Below are positions 1-5,495 of a stretch of 5,495 bases of DNA, piece by piece (position 1 is the first letter of the stretch; the number at the start of each line of letters is the position of its first letter). The notes beneath the pieces are model-generated. The model had not been told where the DNA came from. It worked only from the letters and a program-made list of their open reading frames with translations, and did not search any database. Position numbers and translations under genes: made by a program. This DNA is from a virus. Its lineage: Duplodnaviria > Heunggongvirae > Uroviricota > Caudoviricetes. The DNA lies in the IMG/VR virus record IMGVR_UViG_3300029190_000033, positions 1 through 5,495 of that record; one strand, given 5' to 3'.

Positions 1-78
1 CCCTTTTTTTCTTTCCTTTAAAAATCAAAGCAAAACTTAAGCTTCGCAACAAAATTTAAGTTTCCTTCAAAAACACTC

Positions 79-107
79 TTGACCAATAGTTAAAGAAATC
101 TTAAATT
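79..107 (+). promoter_or_regulatory. Candidate PL-like early promoter: -35 TTGACC (79-84), 17-nt spacer, -10 TAAATT (102-107)
   Basis: Sigma70-like hexamers with 17-bp spacing, read directly; lies about 190 nt upstream of the N-like gene and upstream of the nut-like site; overlapped by an operator-like palindrome. The -10 matches consensus at only 4/6. Confidence 0.4.
89..106. promoter_or_regulatory. Candidate repressor operator (OL-like), P22 c2-type 18-bp site GTTAAAGAAATCTTAAAT
   Basis: 15/18 match to the P22 operator consensus ATTTAAGATATCTTAAAT as I recall it; right half ATCTTAAAT is exact. Overlaps the spacer and -10 of the candidate promoter. Further ATTTAAG half-sites at 54-60 and 105-111. 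Confidence 0.4.
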
Positions 108-152
108 TAAGTCATCGGCAGGACGCTGGTAGCCAAACGGAACAGATTGGCA

Positions 153-194
153 GGCTCTTTAACATTGATGGGATTGTCCCGCCGAAATGCGGGA
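153..194 (+). promoter_or_regulatory. Candidate nutL: boxA GGCTCTTTAACA (153-164) plus boxB-like hairpin TCCCGC / CGAAAT / GCGGGA (177-194)
   Basis: GCTCTTTAACA matches the boxA consensus (rrn-type GCTCTTTAACAA); a 6-bp stem with 6-nt purine-rich loop follows 12 nt downstream; sits between the candidate promoter and the N-like gene as in lambda and P22. Confidence 0.5.
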
Positions 195-301
195 ACCAAA
201 GAGTAGTTGGCTTTGGGGTGACGTGAAGTGCAGCTGCACGACGGCAACCGGAAGATAAGCACCCGGCGCGTCACCGCCAAAGTCAATCATCGGAGGTCAA
301 C

Positions 302-574
302 ATGACAGTAGTCATTACATATCTGGCTGACGATAACGCCAGAAATCGCCGCAGAGCACGCAGACAGGCTCAACGTGAGCAGGCAATGCAAGAACAGCGA
401 CTGGCGCGAAAAATTGCGCTAAAGCTCTCTGGTTGCGTCAGAGCAGACAAAGCAGCATCACTCGGAAGCCTTTGCTGCAAGGAAGAAGATGAACGCAGTG
501 GAAGTATTTGCCTGCCAAACGTAGCCATTTACGCGGCAGGATACCGGAAATCAAAACAACTGACGGCGAGGTAA
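302..574 (+). CDS. N: N-family transcription antitermination protein (P22 gene 24 / lambda N-like), 90 aa
   Basis: RBS GGAGG 5 nt before ATG 302. N-terminal arginine-rich motif DNARNRRRARRQAQREQ resembles the lambda N motif (AQTRRRERRAEKQAQ); the MTVVITY start resembles P22 gp24 as recalled. First gene after the nut-like site. Confidence 0.85.
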   Translation: MTVVITYLADDNARNRRRARRQAQREQAMQEQRLARKIALKLSGCVRADKAASLGSLCCKEEDERSGSICLPNVAIYAAGYRKSKQLTAR

Positions 575-577
575 GTG

Positions 578-802
578 ATGAATCAGACATACATTCCATC
601 ATGCTTGAGAAATCTGCCAAAGCAGAAAGCAAAGCCCCGCAAGCAAGCCATAAAGGACGCTAAGGCAGAGGTTATTGATCAAGCAATACAATTGCTCAGG
701 GAGGAGTTAAGAAGTGGCAAGCTCGAAGGAATGATGATGCCCTATCAGCGCGGATATCTATCGGCGATTAGTAAGCTGGAAGTATTGAAGAGTGAATTAT
801 GA
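578..802 (+). CDS. Hypothetical protein, 74 aa, charged and helical-looking; ral/17 position
   Basis: ORF with GAGG RBS 6 nt before ATG 578 (track start 575 is GTG with too-short spacing); begins 4 nt after the N stop. No recognisable motif; GC looks lower than N or erf. Confidence 0.6.
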   Translation: MNQTYIPSCLRNLPKQKAKPRKQAIKDAKAEVIDQAIQLLREELRSGKLEGMMMPYQRGYLSAISKLEVLKSEL

Positions 803-864
803 ACTATCTGGAATTTCCGGATGGTTCATTGTTTTGGCAGCAAACCACTTATTTGAGGTGAGAT

Positions 865-1335
865 ATGACAAAATCATGGAGCGTACCTTTTCCTGAATCA
901 GAAACTGAACATGATGGAATGCCTGTTTTCTGGAGATTCCAGGCGACAGTTGAAGAAGATGGAATCAAAATATTCGCACTTCAATATATAGCTTTTCATC
1001 AGACAGAGCATTATGCATGGTTGGTTCCTGCGCATTGGATTGTTAATTTTAAACCAGCACCAAATCGGTGGTTACAGGAATGGAAACAAAAGAGAAATAG
1101 ATATGCAATTAAGAAAGTAGCAAAAAATGCAGAAAGATCTTTTGCATTCCCAACGAAGAAACTTGCCATTGAAAGTTTATTGCGCCGGAAGAAATACCAT
1201 TTGATGAGAATCAAACAAGATTTGGCTGTTGTATCAACTCTTGTTGATGGGATGAAGAATATTGATACATCAACACCAGATATTGAATATAACTTTGAAC
1301 ACAACAAAGAAACAGAAAATTGGGTATTTTATTAG
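865..1335 (+). CDS. Hypothetical protein, 156 aa, AT-rich moron-like gene between N and cIII
   Basis: Clean ORF with GAGG RBS 6 nt before ATG 865. Visibly lower GC than flanking genes (roughly 35-40% versus about 50% by eye). No predicted transmembrane segment, so not SieB-like. Followed by an inverted repeat and an intrinsic terminator. Confidence 0.7.
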   Translation: MTKSWSVPFPESETEHDGMPVFWRFQATVEEDGIKIFALQYIAFHQTEHYAWLVPAHWIVNFKPAPNRWLQEWKQKRNRYAIKKVAKNAERSFAFPTKKLAIESLLRRKKYHLMRIKQDLAVVSTLVDGMKNIDTSTPDIEYNFEHNKETENWVFY

Positions 1336-1349
1336 TACAAATAAGCACT

Positions 1350-1377
1350 GTGTATTCATTCCAACGAGTGAATACAC
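1350..1377. repeat. Perfect 9-bp inverted repeat GTGTATTCA / TGAATACAC with 10-bp spacer
   Basis: Read directly; 15 nt after the stop of the 156-aa ORF; no T-tract follows, so not a canonical intrinsic terminator. Confidence 0.6.
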
Positions 1378-1439
1378 GGAGCAATGTCGCTCGTAACTAA
1401 ACAGGAGCCGACTTGTTCTGATTATTGGAAATCTTCTTT

Positions 1440-1464
1440 GCCCTCCAGTGTGAGGGCCTTTTTA
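1440..1464 (+). terminator. Rho-independent terminator (tL-like): GCCCTC / cagtgt / GAGGGC then CTTTTTAT
   Basis: Perfect 6-bp GC-rich stem, 6-nt loop, immediate T5 run, in noncoding DNA between the moron ORF and cIII. A weaker hairpin CGCTTC / ACTC / GAGGCG + TTTT lies at 1480-1499. Confidence 0.6.
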
Positions 1465-1529
1465 TATGCATACCAATAACGCTTCACTCGAGGCGTTTTC
1501 GTTATGCAATCAAACAGAAGGAGCATCCT

Positions 1530-1700
1530 ATGCAACAGTTCGCTATTGCAGGGGCGGCATCGGTTCGCCCTTTCAACCCGATTTTATCGGTACAGCATTC
1601 ACGAAAAAACATTTTAACCGGAGCAGACTTTAAACAACCAAGAATGAAAAGTTTGCTCGAAAAGCTTTGGGATATTTTGAAACAACAAGGCCGTCCATGA
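1530..1700 (+). CDS. cIII: cIII-like protein (FtsH inhibitor family; P22 c3 / lambda cIII-like), 56 aa
   Basis: RBS AAGGAG 7 nt before ATG 1530. MQQFAIAG resembles the lambda CIII start MQYAIAG, and SLLEKLWDILKQQG resembles the CIII central helix (SLLERITRKL..RLIDILNQPG), as recalled. The track's longer ORF from 1425 would run through the terminator hairpin and is rejected. Confidence 0.7.
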   Translation: MQQFAIAGAASVRPFNPILSVQHSRKNILTGADFKQPRMKSLLEKLWDILKQQGRP

Positions 1701-1855
1701 GTTTTACAGATAACTGGTCAGACGAAGAATTCATTCGTCAGATGAAAGAATTAATCGGTAACGAAGGAGATATTCATGTCACTTGCAACCACAGTGAAGG
1801 AGAGCAAGTTACAGAGACGCATGTACACGCAGAAAGCTCTCTGGTATCGCCATAA
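1697..1855 (+). CDS. Small hypothetical protein, 52 aa, in the kil position (Kil-like candidate)
   Basis: ATG 1697 overlaps the cIII stop (ATGA), with AAGG 6 nt upstream. Overlaps the next candidate ORF by 80 nt in another frame. Kil assignment is by synteny only. Confidence 0.5.
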   Translation: MSFTDNWSDEEFIRQMKELIGNEGDIHVTCNHSEGEQVTETHVHAESSLVSP

Positions 1856-1946
1856 TGGTGACCGCGAAGGAATGCGGGTATGCCTTAATTTGTCCCGAGT
1901 CGAAGTATTAAATCAGCGTTATTTTCTTGGGCCGTGTCCATTCTGA
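1776..1946 (+). CDS. Small hypothetical protein, 56 aa, immediately upstream of erf (Arf-like candidate)
   Basis: Not in the ORF track; found by manual translation: MSLATTVKESKLQRRMYTQKALWYRHNGDREGMRVCLNLSRVEVLNQRYFLGPCPF. Perfect RBS AAGGAG 6 nt before ATG 1776; stop TGA is 10 nt before the erf ATG. Arf assignment is by position only. Confidence 0.4.
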   Translation: MSLATTVKESKLQRRMYTQKALWYRHNGDREGMRVCLNLSRVEVLNQRYFLGPCPF

Positions 1947-1956
1947 GATCAAACAT

Positions 1957-2553
1957 ATGAGCAAAGAATTTTATGCAAGGCTGGCAGCCATTCAGGAGAA
2001 TCTGAACGCGCCAAAGAATCAGTACAACTCATTCGGCAAATATAAATACAGAAGCTGCGAAGACATTCTTGAAGGCGTTAAGCCGTTACTGAATGGCCTG
2101 TTTTTATCAATCAGCGATGAAGTTGTGTTGATTGGTGATCGGTATTACGTGAAAGCAACGGCAACTATTACTGATGGCGAAAACAGTCATACAGCAACCG
2201 CTCTTGCACGAGAGGAAGAAAGCAAGAAAGGAATGGATTCTGCACAAGTTACGGGCGCTACAAGCTCTTATGCACGCAAGTATTGCCTCAATGGTTTGTT
2301 CGGCATTGATGATGCGAAAGATGCAGATACCGACGAGCATAAACATCAGCAGAACGCAGCAGCAAAGCAATCAAAACCATCACCTACACCTGAACAGGTT
2401 CTAAAAGCATTCACTGACGCAGCATTGCAGAAAAACNNNNNNNNNNNNNCGTTCGCCAAAGCGTGGAAGATGCTCGAAGGCACACCGGAGCAGCACAAAG
2501 CGCAGGACGTTTACAACATCAGACGAGACGAATTAGAAGGAGCGGCTGCTTAA
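1957..2553 (+). CDS. erf: Erf-family single-strand annealing recombinase (P22 essential recombination function), 198 aa
   Basis: N-terminal region MSKEFYARLAAIQENLNAPKNQYNSFGKYKYRSCEDILEGVKP...GATSSYARKYCLNGLFGIDDAKDAD closely matches P22 Erf as I recall it. Contains 13 masked bases (2437-2449); frame is maintained across them. Confidence 0.9.
   Translation: MSKEFYARLAAIQENLNAPKNQYNSFGKYKYRSCEDILEGVKPLLNGLFLSISDEVVLIGDRYYVKATATITDGENSHTATALAREEESKKGMDSAQVTGATSSYARKYCLNGLFGIDDAKDADTDEHKHQQNAAAKQSKPSPTPEQVLKAFTDAALQKNXXXXXFAKAWKMLEGTPEQHKAQDVYNIRRDELEGAAA
2437..2449. other. Run of 13 N (masked bases) inside erf
   Basis: Literal n characters; the erf frame continues across them, suggesting 1:1 masking. 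Confidence 0.95.
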
Positions 2554-2936
2554 TGGCACATTCGATTACTGTAAGACTAAACAAGCCCGCAAGAGAGTTT
2601 CAGGCCGGGGAAAATATCGGATTCAACATCCGTGCTGGCGTTCAGTATTACGATCGCCAGACAAAAAAGAAAGAATGGACAAACTACAGCGCCGTTGTAT
2701 TTGCCAAGCCGGGAGCGCAAGCGGATTACTACCGTAGTGTTCTTGTTGAAGGTGGCATTGTGGAAATTACCGGAGAAAACATCATGGTTGATGTTTATCA
2801 GGGGCAAAATGGTCAATCAATCACTCTTGAATTACTGAATGCAAAGATTGGATTTGCAGCTTCAGGAAATGGCCCGCAGCAGCAAAGTAGTAACCAGCAG
2901 AACACTCCTGTATACGACGATTCCATCCCATTCTGA
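2553..2936 (+). CDS. Small protein with SSB-type C-terminal tail (ends PVYDDSIPF), 127 aa; candidate phage single-stranded-DNA-binding protein or SSB mimic
   Basis: ATG overlaps the erf stop (TAATG). C-terminus is a Gly/Gln/Asn/Pro-rich linker ending in DDSIPF, like the acidic tip DDDIPF of bacterial SSB. N-terminal 100 aa has beta-rich character but I cannot confirm an OB fold by eye. Confidence 0.6.
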   Translation: MAHSITVRLNKPAREFQAGENIGFNIRAGVQYYDRQTKKKEWTNYSAVVFAKPGAQADYYRSVLVEGGIVEITGENIMVDVYQGQNGQSITLELLNAKIGFAASGNGPQQQSSNQQNTPVYDDSIPF

Positions 2937-2959
2937 TTTAGAAAAATAAGGATTCCATT

Positions 2960-3256
2960 ATGCCAGCGCCTCTGTATGGTGCGGATGACCCGCGCCGCTG
3001 TTCCGGCAATTCCGTATTGGAGGTGCTGGATAAATTCAGAAAAAACTACGATCGGATAATGTCGCTACCGCAGGAAGCGAAAGAGGAAAAGGAATTTCGC
3101 CACTGTATATGGCTTGCAGAGAAAGAAGAACGCGAGCGAATTTACCAGACATCAATCCGACCATTCCGTAAAGCCACATATACCCACTTCCCTGAATATA
3201 TCGACCCGCGCCTGCGTAATTACCGCTCACGCTATGGCGCTATCAGTAATGACTGA
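2960..3256 (+). CDS. Hypothetical protein, 98 aa; candidate Abc2-like anti-RecBCD protein
   Basis: RBS TAAGGA 7 nt before ATG 2960. Occupies the abc position downstream of erf in the P22 PL operon and is the right size (about 97 aa); sequence identity to Abc2 is not verified. Confidence 0.5.
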   Translation: MPAPLYGADDPRRCSGNSVLEVLDKFRKNYDRIMSLPQEAKEEKEFRHCIWLAEKEERERIYQTSIRPFRKATYTHFPEYIDPRLRNYRSRYGAISND

Positions 3257-3266
3257 GGAATTAACA

Positions 3267-3557
3267 ATGAAAACAATGAAGCTAAACATCGACCTCGGAA
3301 AATACGTTATTACCGGAACAAAACACGATCTGATTCTTAGCGAAAGAGGAATTATCAAAGAAGGCGAGAATGCAGGGAAAGAAACACTAAGTCGTATCGG
3401 TTATTACAGCAAGTTTGAGCATCTGGTTAAAGAGTTATGCAACCGTGAAATCCTGTTATCTCAGGCGCAGACGCTACAGGATATTCAGCAACATATCGAG
3501 ACTTTAGGTGTGTCACTTAGCATGGCTGTTGACCAGTTCATGGAGAGTAAATCATGA
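3267..3557 (+). CDS. Hypothetical protein, 96 aa
   Basis: RBS GAGG 8 nt before ATG 3267, 10 nt after the previous stop; the track's upstream extension from 3114 overlaps the previous gene and is rejected. No recognisable motif. Confidence 0.65.
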
Positions 3558-3721
3558 GAGGACTTGCATACAATCCCGGCATTCTTCCGGCAGAAATGAT
3601 TATTCGCCAACGCGTAAAGCCAATGCCATCGAGAGAGGAATTGCTTAAAAGAAAGAGTTTCGGTTCTGTTAATGACAACAAATATCTGAATGCGATGTTG
3701 CGCAAAGGAGGCAGCCAGTGA
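3554..3721 (+). CDS. Small hypothetical protein, 55 aa
   Basis: Not in the ORF track; found by manual translation: [59 protein letters not shown] start/stop overlap with the upstream gene and GTGA-type overlap with the downstream gene. Confidence 0.45.
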
Positions 3722-4203
3722 CTGGACATGCAACAATCCTCGACATGCGCTGTGGCAGTCGCATGTTCTGGTTCGATAAGAATGACGGCCGGGCGATATT
3801 TAGCGATATCAGAAAGGAAGAGCACACATTGTGTGATGGACGACGGCTGATAATTAGCCCTGACCTGATAGCAGATTTTCGTGCATTACCATTTGCAGAC
3901 GCATCGTTTCCGGTTGTTGTATTCGACCCTCCGCATCTTGAGCGTGTTGGTGATAACGCCTGGATGGGAAAGAAATATGGACGGCTGAATAAAGATACCT
4001 GGCGTGATGATTTGCGGCAGGGATTTAAAGAAGCCTTTCGTGTGTTGCGGCCATACGGCGTTCTGATTTTTAAATGGAATGAAACGCAAATACCTGTTCG
4101 CCAGATATTGGCACTGACCGACAGAAAGCCTGTTATCGGTCAACGAACAGGAAAGGGTGACAAGACCCACTGGATTATTTTTATGAAGGAGGGCAACCAG
4201 TGA
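3718..4203 (+). CDS. Putative SAM-dependent (DNA) methyltransferase-like protein, 161 aa, motif VVVFDPPH
   Basis: Strong RBS AAAGGAGG 6 nt before GTG 3718. Hydrophobic strand followed by DPPH fits the (D/N/S)PP(Y/F/W/H) catalytic motif of N6-adenine/N4-cytosine methyltransferases. Protein is small for a methyltransferase, so the call is tentative. Confidence 0.45.
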
Positions 4204-4969
4204 GCAAGATTGACTATCAGGCACTGCGTGAAAAAGCAGAGAAAGCAACTAAAGGAAGCTACATCGNNNNNNNNNNNNNNNNNNNNNNNNCGGCAATTTA
4301 ACAGGAGTTTTTGTTTGTCAAAAATGGAAAGGAGAGCCAGGTGGCGTGATTGCAGAATGTCACGTTAACTGCCTGGTTGAAACAGATGCTCAGGCTTATG
4401 CAAACGCAGAATTCATAGCAGAGGCTAACCCAGCTACCGTACTGGCACTACTGGATGAACGGGAAAGAAACCAGCAATACATCAAACGCCGTGACCAGGA
4501 GAACGAGGATATTACGCTAACGGTAGGGAAGCTGCGTGTTGAGCTTGAAGCAGCAGAGAACAACCTTATTGATAGTGAATGCCATGTTGCTGAACTGGAA
4601 GAAGCGCTACGCGATAAGCAGGCGTTACTTGAAGCCTCAGAAAAGCGCAACGCAAAATTACAAAGCGAGAATGCATACATCCGCAACCGGTTCAAAGAAC
4701 TGGACCTATTAATGGGGAAAAACATTCTGGTCATGCAGGCTGCCATTATCGAATGGCAGGCAACTGGCGACGCTAAGAGCGGACTAGCATGGATTTATAA
4801 CACACTGTTTGGCCCTGGCGAATTACCGGACGAATCTGAGAAAGATGCTCAGGCCTACTTTAATCGCAAATATGCACCGATTGACGAAAAGCTTATGGCG
4901 CTTCACAAGTGGTTTTGGGAACAAAGTGAAGCCGAGCGCGCCGCTGGCATTGGCATCAAAGGAGAGTGA
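4200..4969 (+). CDS. Ead/Ea22-like phage protein, interrupted by 24 masked bases; coiled-coil C-terminal half
   Basis: RBS AGGAGG 7 nt before GTG 4200. N-terminus [21 protein letters not shown] and downstream AQAYANAEFIAEANPATVLALLDERE are typical of Ead/Ea22-like proteins as recalled. Reading frame before the N-run differs from the frame of the long ORF ending at 4969, so the true start is uncertain (could be 4346). Confidence 0.6.
4267..4290. other. Run of 24 N (masked bases) inside the Ead/Ea22-like gene
   Basis: Literal n characters; the frames on either side are not the same. Confidence 0.95.
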
Positions 4970-4970
4970 T

Positions 4971-5495
4971 ATGAGCACTATCACTAAAGAACGTATCGAA
5001 TTGTTCATTAAATCCCCGCTTGAAAACGGGCTTACCCGTGGCGAACAAATGGAACTGGCACGAATTGCACTGGCATCGCTGGAAGCAGAGCCTGTAAGCC
5101 AAGCTTACAACTTGGCAGAATTAATCGAAGGCATGGAAGTTTCCATTGATGTAAGCACTTGTGATGCTGATTTAGGTAATCGCTATTTCGGCACCGTCAC
5201 CGAGGCGTTAGAACTTGATACAGCCAAGAATGGTTACATCCTCCTGGTTCAGGACGCAGAGCCAAACTTCGATGTAAATGGCAACTCTCCGGTAACTCCG
5301 GATAGCTGGATCTCCCGCTTCGAAGAAATGCCGGATCCGTCTAGCGAAAGGCGCGTGTGTGCGTTCACACCTACCAACCATGAAGATATGCGCTACCGCT
5401 TCGTGCCCGCCTCGCTCTTTAAGACAGTTTGCAGAGACGCGACCCACTGGTTTTATATGCTTCCGCCAGTAGGGCGGGAGGAGGTTGCAGGTGGC
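4971..5495 (+). CDS. Hypothetical protein, 5' part only (175 codons, open to window end)
   Basis: Not in the ORF track; manual translation from ATG 4971 (MSTITKERIELFIKSPLENGLTRGEQMELARIALASLEAEPV...) has no stop through 5495. Perfect RBS AAGGAG 6 nt upstream, 1 nt after the previous stop. Confidence 0.65.
   Translation, partial: MSTITKERIELFIKSPLENGLTRGEQMELARIALASLEAEPVSQAYNLAELIEGMEVSIDVSTCDADLGNRYFGTVTEALELDTAKNGYILLVQDAEPNFDVNGNSPVTPDSWISRFEEMPDPSSERRVCAFTPTNHEDMRYRFVPASLFKTVCRDATHWFYMLPPVGREEVAGG

What the first reader, a model, noticed from the sequence alone, without database searches (positions are those of the whole stretch)
54..112. P22-type operator half-sites clustered over a candidate PL promoter
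Several ATTTAAG / CTTAAAT half-sites occur here, including an 18-bp site at 89-106 with an exact right half, overlapping the candidate -35 and -10. This is the expected architecture of a repressor-controlled early promoter and suggests P22 c2-like immunity specificity, with the repressor gene upstream of the window.
Basis: partly seen in the sequence, partly recalled or inferred. Interest (0 to 1): 0.45.

Follow-up and report, generated by a model that had tools for sequence, protein, structure and literature searches.

The report
P22/phage-21-type OL operators at PL
This is the ordinary, long-known left operator and early promoter of a lambda-like prophage of the phage 21 / P22 immunity type, where the prophage repressor sits to keep the early-left genes switched off.

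Summary
Exact ATTTAAG half-sites lie at 54-60 (+), 100-106 (-) and 105-111 (+). Two 18-bp dyads, 54-71 and 89-106, each miss the P22 consensus ANTNAAG-N4-CTTNANT at one position. A matrix trained only on P22 OR1-3 ranks them first and second in the window; no randomised sequence held two such sites.

Window 1-125 is homologous to the annotated OL/PL of P22 (81.6%) and phage 21 (79.2%). This gives OL3 25-42, OL2 54-71, -35 79-84, OL1 89-106, -10 102-107 and +1 at A114. boxA, boxB and an N gene follow.

In E. coli prophages 99.5% identical over window 1-400, a 216-aa LexA-family repressor ends 11 nt before window position 1. It is 99% identical to the phage 21 repressor reading frame and 93% to P22 C2, with recognition helix SNVAISQWERS unchanged. 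489 E. coli genomes hold this operator type, and 489 hold it joined to the repressor gene.

The -35 lies between OL2 and OL1, not under a site. The 105-111 half-site is an orphan. OL3 lies outside the given coordinates. The nearest characterised relative is phage 21 rather than P22.

Already known; low interest.

The parts
1..10 (+). End of the intrinsic terminator of the upstream repressor gene: last three C of the 3' arm, then the T run
   Evidence: In all relatives the sequence GGGGCATTCGCCCC-TTTTTTT follows the repressor stop codon. The window begins inside the 3' arm (alignments). A terminator is annotated at this place in phage 21.
25..42 (.). OL3, a weak site: good right half CTTAAGC, poor left half
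   Evidence: Orthologous to the annotated phage 21 OL3 and to the left end of the P22 C2-binding region. The matrix score is low, 0.8 bits, like P22 OL3 (4.5) and phage 21 OL3 (-1.6).
54..71 (.). OL2: ATTTAAG-TTTC-CTTCAAA
   Evidence: One mismatch to ANTNAAGNNNNCTTNANT. 13.7 bits with the matrix trained on P22 OR1-3. Orthologous to the annotated phage 21 OL2. Identical to P22 OL2 except C64 in the non-contacted spacer.
79..84 (+). PL -35 hexamer TTGACC
   Evidence: Found by the promoter scan. Invariant in 9 aligned sequences. Lies inside the annotated P22 PL promoter.
89..106 (.). OL1: GTTAAAG-AAAT-CTTAAAT
   Evidence: One mismatch to the consensus. Best dyad in the window, 16.5 bits. Orthologous to the annotated phage 21 OL1 and to the right end of the P22 C2-binding region.
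102..107 (+). PL -10 hexamer TAAATT, overlapped by the right half of OL1
105..111 (+). Orphan ATTTAAG half-site. With the right half of OL1 it forms the perfect 12-bp palindrome CTTAAATTTAAG (100-111)
   Evidence: No partner half-site at the right spacing: 105-122 scores 5.8 bits. Not part of any annotated operator. P22 itself has ATTTTAG here.
114..114 (+). Inferred PL transcription start (A)
   Evidence: Column-for-column equivalent of the PL start annotated in P22 (there 'by lambda homology') and in phage 21. Inferred, not measured.
154..162 (+). nutL boxA, GCTCTTTAA
   Evidence: Sequence read. boxA is annotated at the equivalent place in relatives (mEpX2; phage 21).
177..194 (+). nutL boxB-like hairpin: 6-bp stem, 6-nt loop CGAAAU
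   Evidence: Present in both the minimum-energy and the centroid fold of the leader.
302..574 (+). N-type antiterminator gene, first gene of the PL operon
   Evidence: Pfam PF25694 N_peptide, 5e-15. phrog_271, anti-termination protein N-like.

Best explanation
Window 25-114 is the left operator (OL1, OL2 and a weak OL3) and the early-left promoter PL of a lambdoid prophage whose immunity region belongs to the phage 21 / P22 immC class.

In a lysogen, dimers of a 216-aa C2/cI-type repressor, encoded immediately upstream, bind the 18-bp dyads through the helix-turn-helix whose recognition helix is SNVAISQWERS. OL1 covers the spacer and the -10. OL2 lies 35 bp upstream of OL1, centre to centre. 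The two bound dimers bracket the -35, exclude RNA polymerase from PL, and so silence N and the early-left recombination genes (erf, ssb-like, abc2 and others).

RecA-stimulated self-cleavage of the repressor (Peptidase_S24 domain) would lift repression. A P22-type Cro would bind the same sites later in lytic growth.

Shown here: the sites, their homology and position, the promoter match, and the identity of the repressor and Cro in close relatives.

Inferred from knowledge of P22 and phage 21: actual binding, cooperativity, promoter occlusion and SOS induction.
For: - Homology to the annotated OL/PL: 81.6% to P22, 79.2% to phage 21, 88.8-89.3% to JEP4, CUS-3 and IME10. The annotated operators, promoter and start map onto window 25-42, 54-71, 89-106, 79-107 and 114.
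- Independent scoring: the matrix trained on P22 OR1-3 ranks OL1 and OL2 first and second in the window. 0 of 500 and 0 of 5000 randomisations matched this.
- Conservation pattern in 9 sequences: 5 of 24 contacted operator columns vary, against 14 of 22 inter-operator columns. The -35 is invariant.
- Repressor directly upstream in relatives: 93% identical to P22 C2 and 99% to the phage 21 frame, with an invariant helix-turn-helix. Matches PDB 1adr and 2r1j and Pfam HTH_3 + Peptidase_S24. The Cro of the same prophages is 95% identical to P22 Cro.
- Linkage: 489 genomes hold the OL and 489 hold the OL joined to the repressor gene.
- Downstream: boxA, a boxB-like hairpin and an N gene.
- Background on P22 repressor: six 18-bp operators, bases 2-7 and 12-17 contacted, the central four not contacted (PMC4267663, read).
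Against: - The source's own sequence upstream of window position 1 cannot be read, so the repressor gene is inferred from relatives.
- No binding or transcription data exist for this exact sequence.
- OL3 matches the consensus poorly.
- C64 puts a G:C pair into the OL2 spacer. Published P22 work suggests G:C pairs in the non-contacted region weaken binding.
- The PL start is assigned by homology only, even in the P22 record.
Confidence: 0.93

Rival explanations
1. The operator and promoter are of the P22/21 type, but in this particular genome they are a relic. The cognate repressor gene upstream is absent, truncated or inactive (a defective prophage, or a contig end), so the sites are not currently in use.
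For: The window begins inside the repressor-gene terminator, so the upstream gene cannot be seen. The two near-identical metagenome contigs L009 and L010 start at window 131, so assemblies break here and never show the joint. No public sequence with the exact OL2 variant was found.
Against: The terminator tail at 1-10 is intact. In complete E. coli genomes the count of OL-bearing genomes equals the count bearing OL joined to the repressor gene, 489 each. The downstream reading frames N, erf, abc2 and others are intact.
Confidence: 0.04
2. The sites belong to a heteroimmune variant. They resemble P22 and 21 operators, but differences (G at position 1 and the AAAT spacer of OL1; C64 in OL2) go with a repressor of altered specificity.
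For: No phage record is more than 89.3% identical over window 1-125. Among the nine aligned sequences, the OL1 left half GTTAAAG occurs only in the window and Ec 13KWH46.
Against: Repressors next to OL variants spanning 76-99% identity to the window are 93-100% identical to one another, with invariant residues 17-48. The Ec 13KWH46 prophage repressor and its Cro are near-identical to those of phage 21 and P22. The differing operator positions are position 1 and the spacer, which lie outside the contacted bases 2-7 and 12-17. The contacted bases of the window's OL1 left half (TTAAAG) also occur in P22 OR1.
Confidence: 0.02
3. The half-sites are chance repeats in an AT-rich intergenic stretch.
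For: The region has only 26.8% G+C. The bare count of ATTTAAG in the window is not significant: 14 of 200 shuffles had 3 or more.
Against: 0 of 5000 random 130-mers with the same local dinucleotide make-up contained two dyads of this quality. The region is homologous to experimentally defined operators. Contacted positions are conserved while the flanks vary.
Confidence: 0.01

Closest known systems
OL/PL of coliphage 21 (GenBank OL657228; operators annotated in the record; Poteete, Ptashne, Ballivet and Eisen 1980, J Mol Biol 137:81, cited from the reference lists read)
   Same: Three 18-bp sites at the same positions relative to an identical -35 (TTGACC) and -10 (TAAATT). Same terminator-OL-PL layout after the repressor gene. 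The repressor of the window's nearest relatives is 99% identical to the phage 21 repressor frame.
   Different: Only 79.2% DNA identity over window 1-125. The OL1 left half and spacer differ: GTTAAAG-AAAT against AATTAAG-AAGT. The OL2 left half is ATTTAAG against AATTAAG. The OL3 right half is CTTAAG against CTAAAT. The window's nutL and N are of a different type from phage 21's.
OL/PL of Salmonella phage P22 (immC; GenBank AF527608)
   Same: Same architecture. OL2 is identical apart from C64. The OL1 right half, -35 and -10 are identical. The C2 recognition helix is the same as in the repressor of the window's relatives. The solved C2 N-terminal domain matches.
   Different: 81.6% DNA identity over window 12-125. 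The repressor of the nearest relatives is 93% identical to C2 rather than near-identical. P22 lacks the exact orphan half-site, having ATTTTAG. The downstream genes (gene 24, sieB) differ from the window's.
E. coli Lederbergvirus phages JEP4, CUS-3, IME10, N7 and Gally, and unnamed E. coli prophages such as that of strain 13KWH46
   Same: These are the closest sequences: 88.8-89.3% for the phages and 99.1% for the prophages over the operator region. They have the same repressor, Cro and terminator layout.
   Different: The window alone has C at position 64. The genes downstream of N differ from those of the 13KWH46 prophage because of mosaicism.
OL/PL of phage lambda
   Same: Works the same way: three repressor sites, PL, then nutL and N. 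The repressor is an HTH + S24 protein (established knowledge).
   Different: The operator sequence is unrelated: the best match to the lambda 17-mer has 8 mismatches. The sites are 18 bp rather than 17 bp. The OL1-OL2 spacing is 35 bp, with the -35 lying between the sites.

Membership tests
P22 / phage 21-type left operator and PL (immC / imm21 class) | 18-bp dyad sites fitting ANTNAAG-N4-CTTNANT | tested here: met
   54-71 and 89-106 each have one mismatch. They are the top two scores with a matrix trained on P22 OR1-3.
P22 / phage 21-type left operator and PL (immC / imm21 class) | DNA homology to the experimentally defined OL/PL of P22 and phage 21, with operators, -35, -10 and start at orthologous columns | tested here: met
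   81.6% and 79.2% identity. Annotated features map onto window 25-42, 54-71, 89-106, 79-107 and 114.
P22 / phage 21-type left operator and PL (immC / imm21 class) | Third site OL3 upstream of OL2 | tested here: inconclusive
   The orthologous stretch 25-42 is present and has a good right half, but it scores only 0.8 bits. The annotated OL3 of P22 and phage 21 score equally poorly.
P22 / phage 21-type left operator and PL (immC / imm21 class) | Cognate repressor with the P22 C2 recognition helix (SNVAISQWERS) encoded directly upstream and ending at a terminator before OL3 | not testable with these tools
   The window starts 11 nt after the expected stop codon and its source was not found. The feature is met in every relative examined, and 489 genomes hold the OL against 489 holding the OL joined to the repressor gene.
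P22 / phage 21-type left operator and PL (immC / imm21 class) | Followed by nutL (boxA, boxB) and an N-type antiterminator gene | tested here: met
   boxA 154-162, hairpin 177-194, N gene 302-574. The N is of a different type from P22 gp24 or phage 21 N.
P22 / phage 21-type left operator and PL (immC / imm21 class) | Specific binding by C2 / cI(21) repressor and repression of PL | not testable with these tools
   Needs footprinting, gel-shift or reporter assays.
Lambda-type or 434-type operators | Match to the lambda 17-mer consensus or to the 434 ACAA-N6-TTGT dyad | tested here: not met
   In window 1-130 the best lambda match has 8 of 17 mismatches. The best 434 match has 2 of 8 specified positions wrong.

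The most novel reading that the evidence does not exclude
The window's own variants, above all the otherwise unseen T-to-C change at position 64, may be functionally meaningful rather than neutral. C64 puts a G:C pair at spacer position 11 of OL2. The A-tract spacer AAAT of OL1 is the other variant. Together they could weaken OL2 and strengthen OL1, shifting cooperative occupancy and the induction threshold of PL, as a partly operator-constitutive natural allele. Separately, the conserved everted palindrome CTTAAATTTAAG over the -10 could be an unrecognised extra contact for repressor or Cro.
Probability: 0.06. Interest if true: 0.2.

Novelty: already known. Interest (0 to 1): 0.07.

Why it matters
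It matters little beyond annotation. The finding fixes the immunity class of this prophage as imm21 / P22 immC. That predicts which superinfecting phages it excludes and that it is SOS-inducible. It also marks the exact start of the early-left operon.

It gives a clean example of lambdoid mosaicism. The immunity module ends within the -10 of PL, at window 106-113. To the right of that point the same N/erf module is found joined to quite different repressors in other phages.

The operators themselves were defined biochemically in 1980. The repressor-DNA complex has been solved.

Tried and rejected
1. Finding the source genome in order to read upstream.
- The exact 36-mer spanning OL2 and the -35 (with C64) was absent from genome contigs and from metagenome contigs.
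- A whole-window search of complete E. coli genomes gave no place covering 80% or more of the window.
- Exact-protein look-up of the 207-aa ORF (4346-4969) found nothing on record.
- Look-up of the 156-aa ORF gave contigs that either start at window 131 (L009, L010) or carry a different immunity region to the left of window 106 (L006-L008).

2. Lambda and 434 operator consensus sequences do not fit window 1-130.

3. Rfam found no RNA family anywhere in the window.

4. The terminator-like hairpin on the minus strand at 47..30, overlapping OL3, was not pursued. The scan finds 2 such sites in 700 bases against 1.1 expected.

5. The third-best P22-type dyad, 4024-4041 (12.35 bits), lies inside a coding region. 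It is close to the mean best score of random windows (10.4), so it was treated as chance.

6. I looked in the held literature for an explicit statement that P22 and phage 21 share immunity specificity. I recall this from Botstein and Herskowitz 1974 and Poteete et al. 1980. No held paper states it. That point therefore rests on my own recollection, plus the identical helix-turn-helix and near-identical operators shown here.

Full report
**1. The observation**

Window 1-112 is AT-rich: 26.8% G+C against 45.8% for the rest of the window. The heptamer ATTTAAG occurs exactly three times in the 5495 bases. All three lie inside the finding, at 54-60 (+), 100-106 (-) and 105-111 (+).

The count alone is not significant. 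0.97 occurrences are expected, and 14 of 200 shuffles had three or more. By simple arithmetic, three random hits fall within 58 of 5495 bases with probability about 3e-4.

Two 18-bp dyads are present. The other is 54-71, ATTTAAG-TTTC-CTTCAAA. Each has two mismatches to the idealised ATTTAAG-N4-CTTAAAT. Each has one mismatch to the degenerate P22 consensus ANTNAAG-N4-CTTNANT.

I built a half-site matrix from P22 OR1-3 only, because those sites are not orthologous to the window's positions. With it, 89-106 (16.5 bits) and 54-71 (13.7 bits) are the two best dyads in the window. None of 500 first-order random windows had two sites that good. Neither did any of 5000 random 130-mers with the local dinucleotide make-up.

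The only sigma-70-like promoter in window 1-700 is TTGACC 79-84, a 17-bp spacer, then TAAATT 102-107.

The 18-bp site overlaps the -10 but not the -35, which lies in the 17-bp gap between the two dyads.

**2. What it is**

Window 1-125 has 61 phage matches, all in P22-like or phage-21-like immunity regions:

| Relative | Identity |
|---|---|
| JEP4, CUS-3, IME10, N7, Gally | 88.8-89.3% |
| P22 | 81.6% |
| Phage 21 and lambda imm21 | 79.2% |

The P22 record annotates a C2-repressor binding region, the PL promoter, the PL RNA 5' end and nutL. The phage 21 record (Feiss et al. 2022, PMC9119081) annotates OL1, OL2, OL3, the pL start, boxA-L and nutL.

Carried over through the alignments, these features fall on the window as follows:

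| Feature | Window coordinates |
|---|---|
| OL3 | 25-42 |
| OL2 | 54-71 |
| -35 | 79-84 |
| OL1 | 89-106 |
| -10 | 102-107 |
| PL start | A114 |

OL3 lies outside the stated coordinates and is a weak site. Its right half is good and its left half poor (0.8 bits). The same is true of the annotated OL3 of P22 (4.5 bits) and of phage 21 (-1.6 bits).

The third exact half-site, 105-111, has no partner at the right spacing and belongs to no annotated operator. With the right half of OL1 it forms a perfect 12-bp palindrome, CTTAAATTTAAG. P22 itself has ATTTTAG at that place.

Window 1-10 is the end of the terminator that follows the repressor gene in all relatives (GGGGCATTCGCCCC followed by a T run).

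**3. The repressor**

The window starts too late to contain the repressor gene, and I could not find the source.

In E. coli prophages 99.5% identical over window 1-400, a 216-aa LexA-family protein ends 11 nt before window position 1. It is preceded by OR and a divergent 61-aa Cro.

That repressor is 93% identical to P22 C2. It is 99% identical to the phage 21 repressor frame read from its upstream ATG. Its first 76 residues match the solved P22 C2 DNA-binding domain almost residue for residue (1adr, 2r1j). It carries HTH_3 and Peptidase_S24 domains. The Cro is 95% identical to P22 Cro (PF14549).

I compared eight repressors taken from next to OL variants spanning 76-99% identity to the window. 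Residues 17-48 are invariant in all of them, including SNVAISQWERS. From my own knowledge, that is the P22 recognition helix used in the Wharton and Ptashne helix swap.

489 of 5426 complete E. coli genomes hold an OL of this type. Exactly 489 hold a query made of the last 190 nt of the repressor gene joined to OL at 80% coverage or more. I compared the two counts; I did not check that they are the same genomes. For the window's own source it remains an inference.

**4. Conservation**

In nine aligned OL regions, 5 of 24 contacted operator columns vary (positions 2-7 and 12-17 of OL1 and OL2). So do 3 of 8 spacer columns and 14 of 22 inter-operator columns. The -35 is invariant, and the -10 varies in one sequence. 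This is the pattern expected of functional sites.

Published work on P22 repressor describes six 18-bp operators. The outer bases are contacted and the central four are not. G:C pairs in the non-contacted region lower affinity, and OL1 is the tightest natural site (PMC4267663).

The contacted bases of the window's OL1 left half (TTAAAG) also occur in P22 OR1. Its spacer, AAAT, is A/T only.

The window differs from its nearest relatives in the operator region at one base, C64, which is position 11 of OL2. All eight aligned relatives have T there. Whether this is a real allele, an assembly error or functionally relevant cannot be decided here.

**5. Surroundings**

Downstream of the inferred start lie:
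- boxA, GCTCTTTAA, at 154-162;
- a boxB-like hairpin at 177-194;
- a long hairpin at about 206-287;
- an N-type antiterminator gene at 302-574.

The rest of the window is an early-left operon. It carries ERF recombinase, a short SSB-like protein, Abc2 (anti-RecBCD), DUF5405, DUF2737, a methyltransferase-like protein and an Ead/Ea22-like protein.

Many lambdoid and Stx phages with other immunity regions match the window only from position 106 or 113 onward. For example, L006-L008 are 99% identical from 106 on but carry a 238-aa repressor and a lambda-type Cro to the left. The immunity module therefore ends within the -10 of PL, a classical mosaic joint. CUS-3 annotates a 'boundary sequence' here.

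**6. Mechanism**

Best explanation, confidence 0.93: this is the OL/PL control region of an imm21 / P22 immC-class prophage.

Repressor dimers bind at OL1 (over the spacer and the -10) and at OL2 (35 bp upstream, centre to centre). They bracket the -35, keep RNA polymerase off PL, and so silence N and the early-left genes. OL3 is a weak auxiliary site. RecA-stimulated self-cleavage lifts repression. Cro uses the same sites.

The sites, their homology, the promoter and the neighbouring repressor are shown. Binding, cooperativity, occlusion and induction are inferred from P22 and phage 21.

Rivals:
- A relic without a live repressor upstream (0.04).
- A heteroimmune variant (0.02).
- Chance (0.01).

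**7. Comparison and novelty**

The region works like the OL/PL of P22 and phage 21, and is a member of that family by every feature I could test. Two features could not be tested here: the upstream repressor in this exact genome, and biochemical binding.

It does not fit the lambda or 434 operator consensus.

The nearest characterised relative by repressor identity is phage 21, not P22. That the two share operator specificity is my recollection of Botstein and Herskowitz 1974 and of Poteete et al. 1980. The latter is cited in the reference lists read. No held paper states it outright. The identical helix-turn-helix and near-identical operators shown here agree with it.

The element is already known and interest is low.

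Noticed in passing
window 106-113: Mosaic joint. Many lambdoid and Stx phages and prophages with unrelated immunity regions match the window only from 106 or 113 onward. L006-L008, for example, have a 238-aa repressor and a lambda-type Cro to the left. The immunity module therefore ends inside the -10 of PL. CUS-3 annotates a 'boundary sequence' here.
   Followed up: partly
window 64: C at spacer position 11 of OL2, where all eight aligned relatives have T. The best complete E. coli genome is 99.1% identical over window 1-112. The exact 36-mer is absent from the genome and metagenome collections. It could be a real allele, a sequencing or assembly error, or a mild operator variant.
   Followed up: partly
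window 131-5495; L009 1-5375; L010: Human-gut metagenome contig L009 (ENA ERZ914930, k127_3067) matches window 131-5495 with 38 mismatches, of which the window's 37 N positions could account for nearly all. Both L009 and L010 begin exactly at window 131, 17 nt after the PL start. This suggests an assembly break at the variable immunity region.
   Followed up: partly
window 100-111: Perfect 12-bp palindrome CTTAAATTTAAG, formed by the right half of OL1 and an orphan ATTTAAG half-site and covering the -10. It is conserved in 7 of 9 aligned sequences, but not in P22 or Ec 2013C-4225. No function is known.
   Followed up: partly
window about 206-287: Long, stable hairpin in the N leader between the boxB-like hairpin and the N start codon. 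The whole leader folds with a z-score of -2.6. Its position recalls the RNase III-processed hairpin of the lambda N leader (my own knowledge). The minus-strand 'terminator-like' hit at 281..262 is part of it.
   Followed up: no
window 2437-2449 and 4267-4290: Runs of N (13 and 24 bases) interrupt the ERF gene and the Ead/Ea22-like gene. Reading frames across them are therefore uncertain.
   Followed up: no
window 2553-2936: A 127-aa protein just after erf has no Pfam hit. It does match phrog_44 (single-strand DNA-binding protein, 3e-26) and ends in DDSIPF, like the acidic tip of bacterial SSB. It is a short, divergent SSB.
   Followed up: partly
window 4024-4041: Third-best P22-type dyad, TTTAAAGAAGCCTTTCGT (12.35 bits), lies inside the methyltransferase-like ORF. 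It is near the mean best score of random windows (10.4), so it is probably chance.
   Followed up: partly
window 30-47, minus strand: Terminator-like hairpin plus T run on the minus strand, overlapping OL3. The scan finds 2 such sites in 700 bases against 1.1 expected, so it is not significant on its own.
   Followed up: no
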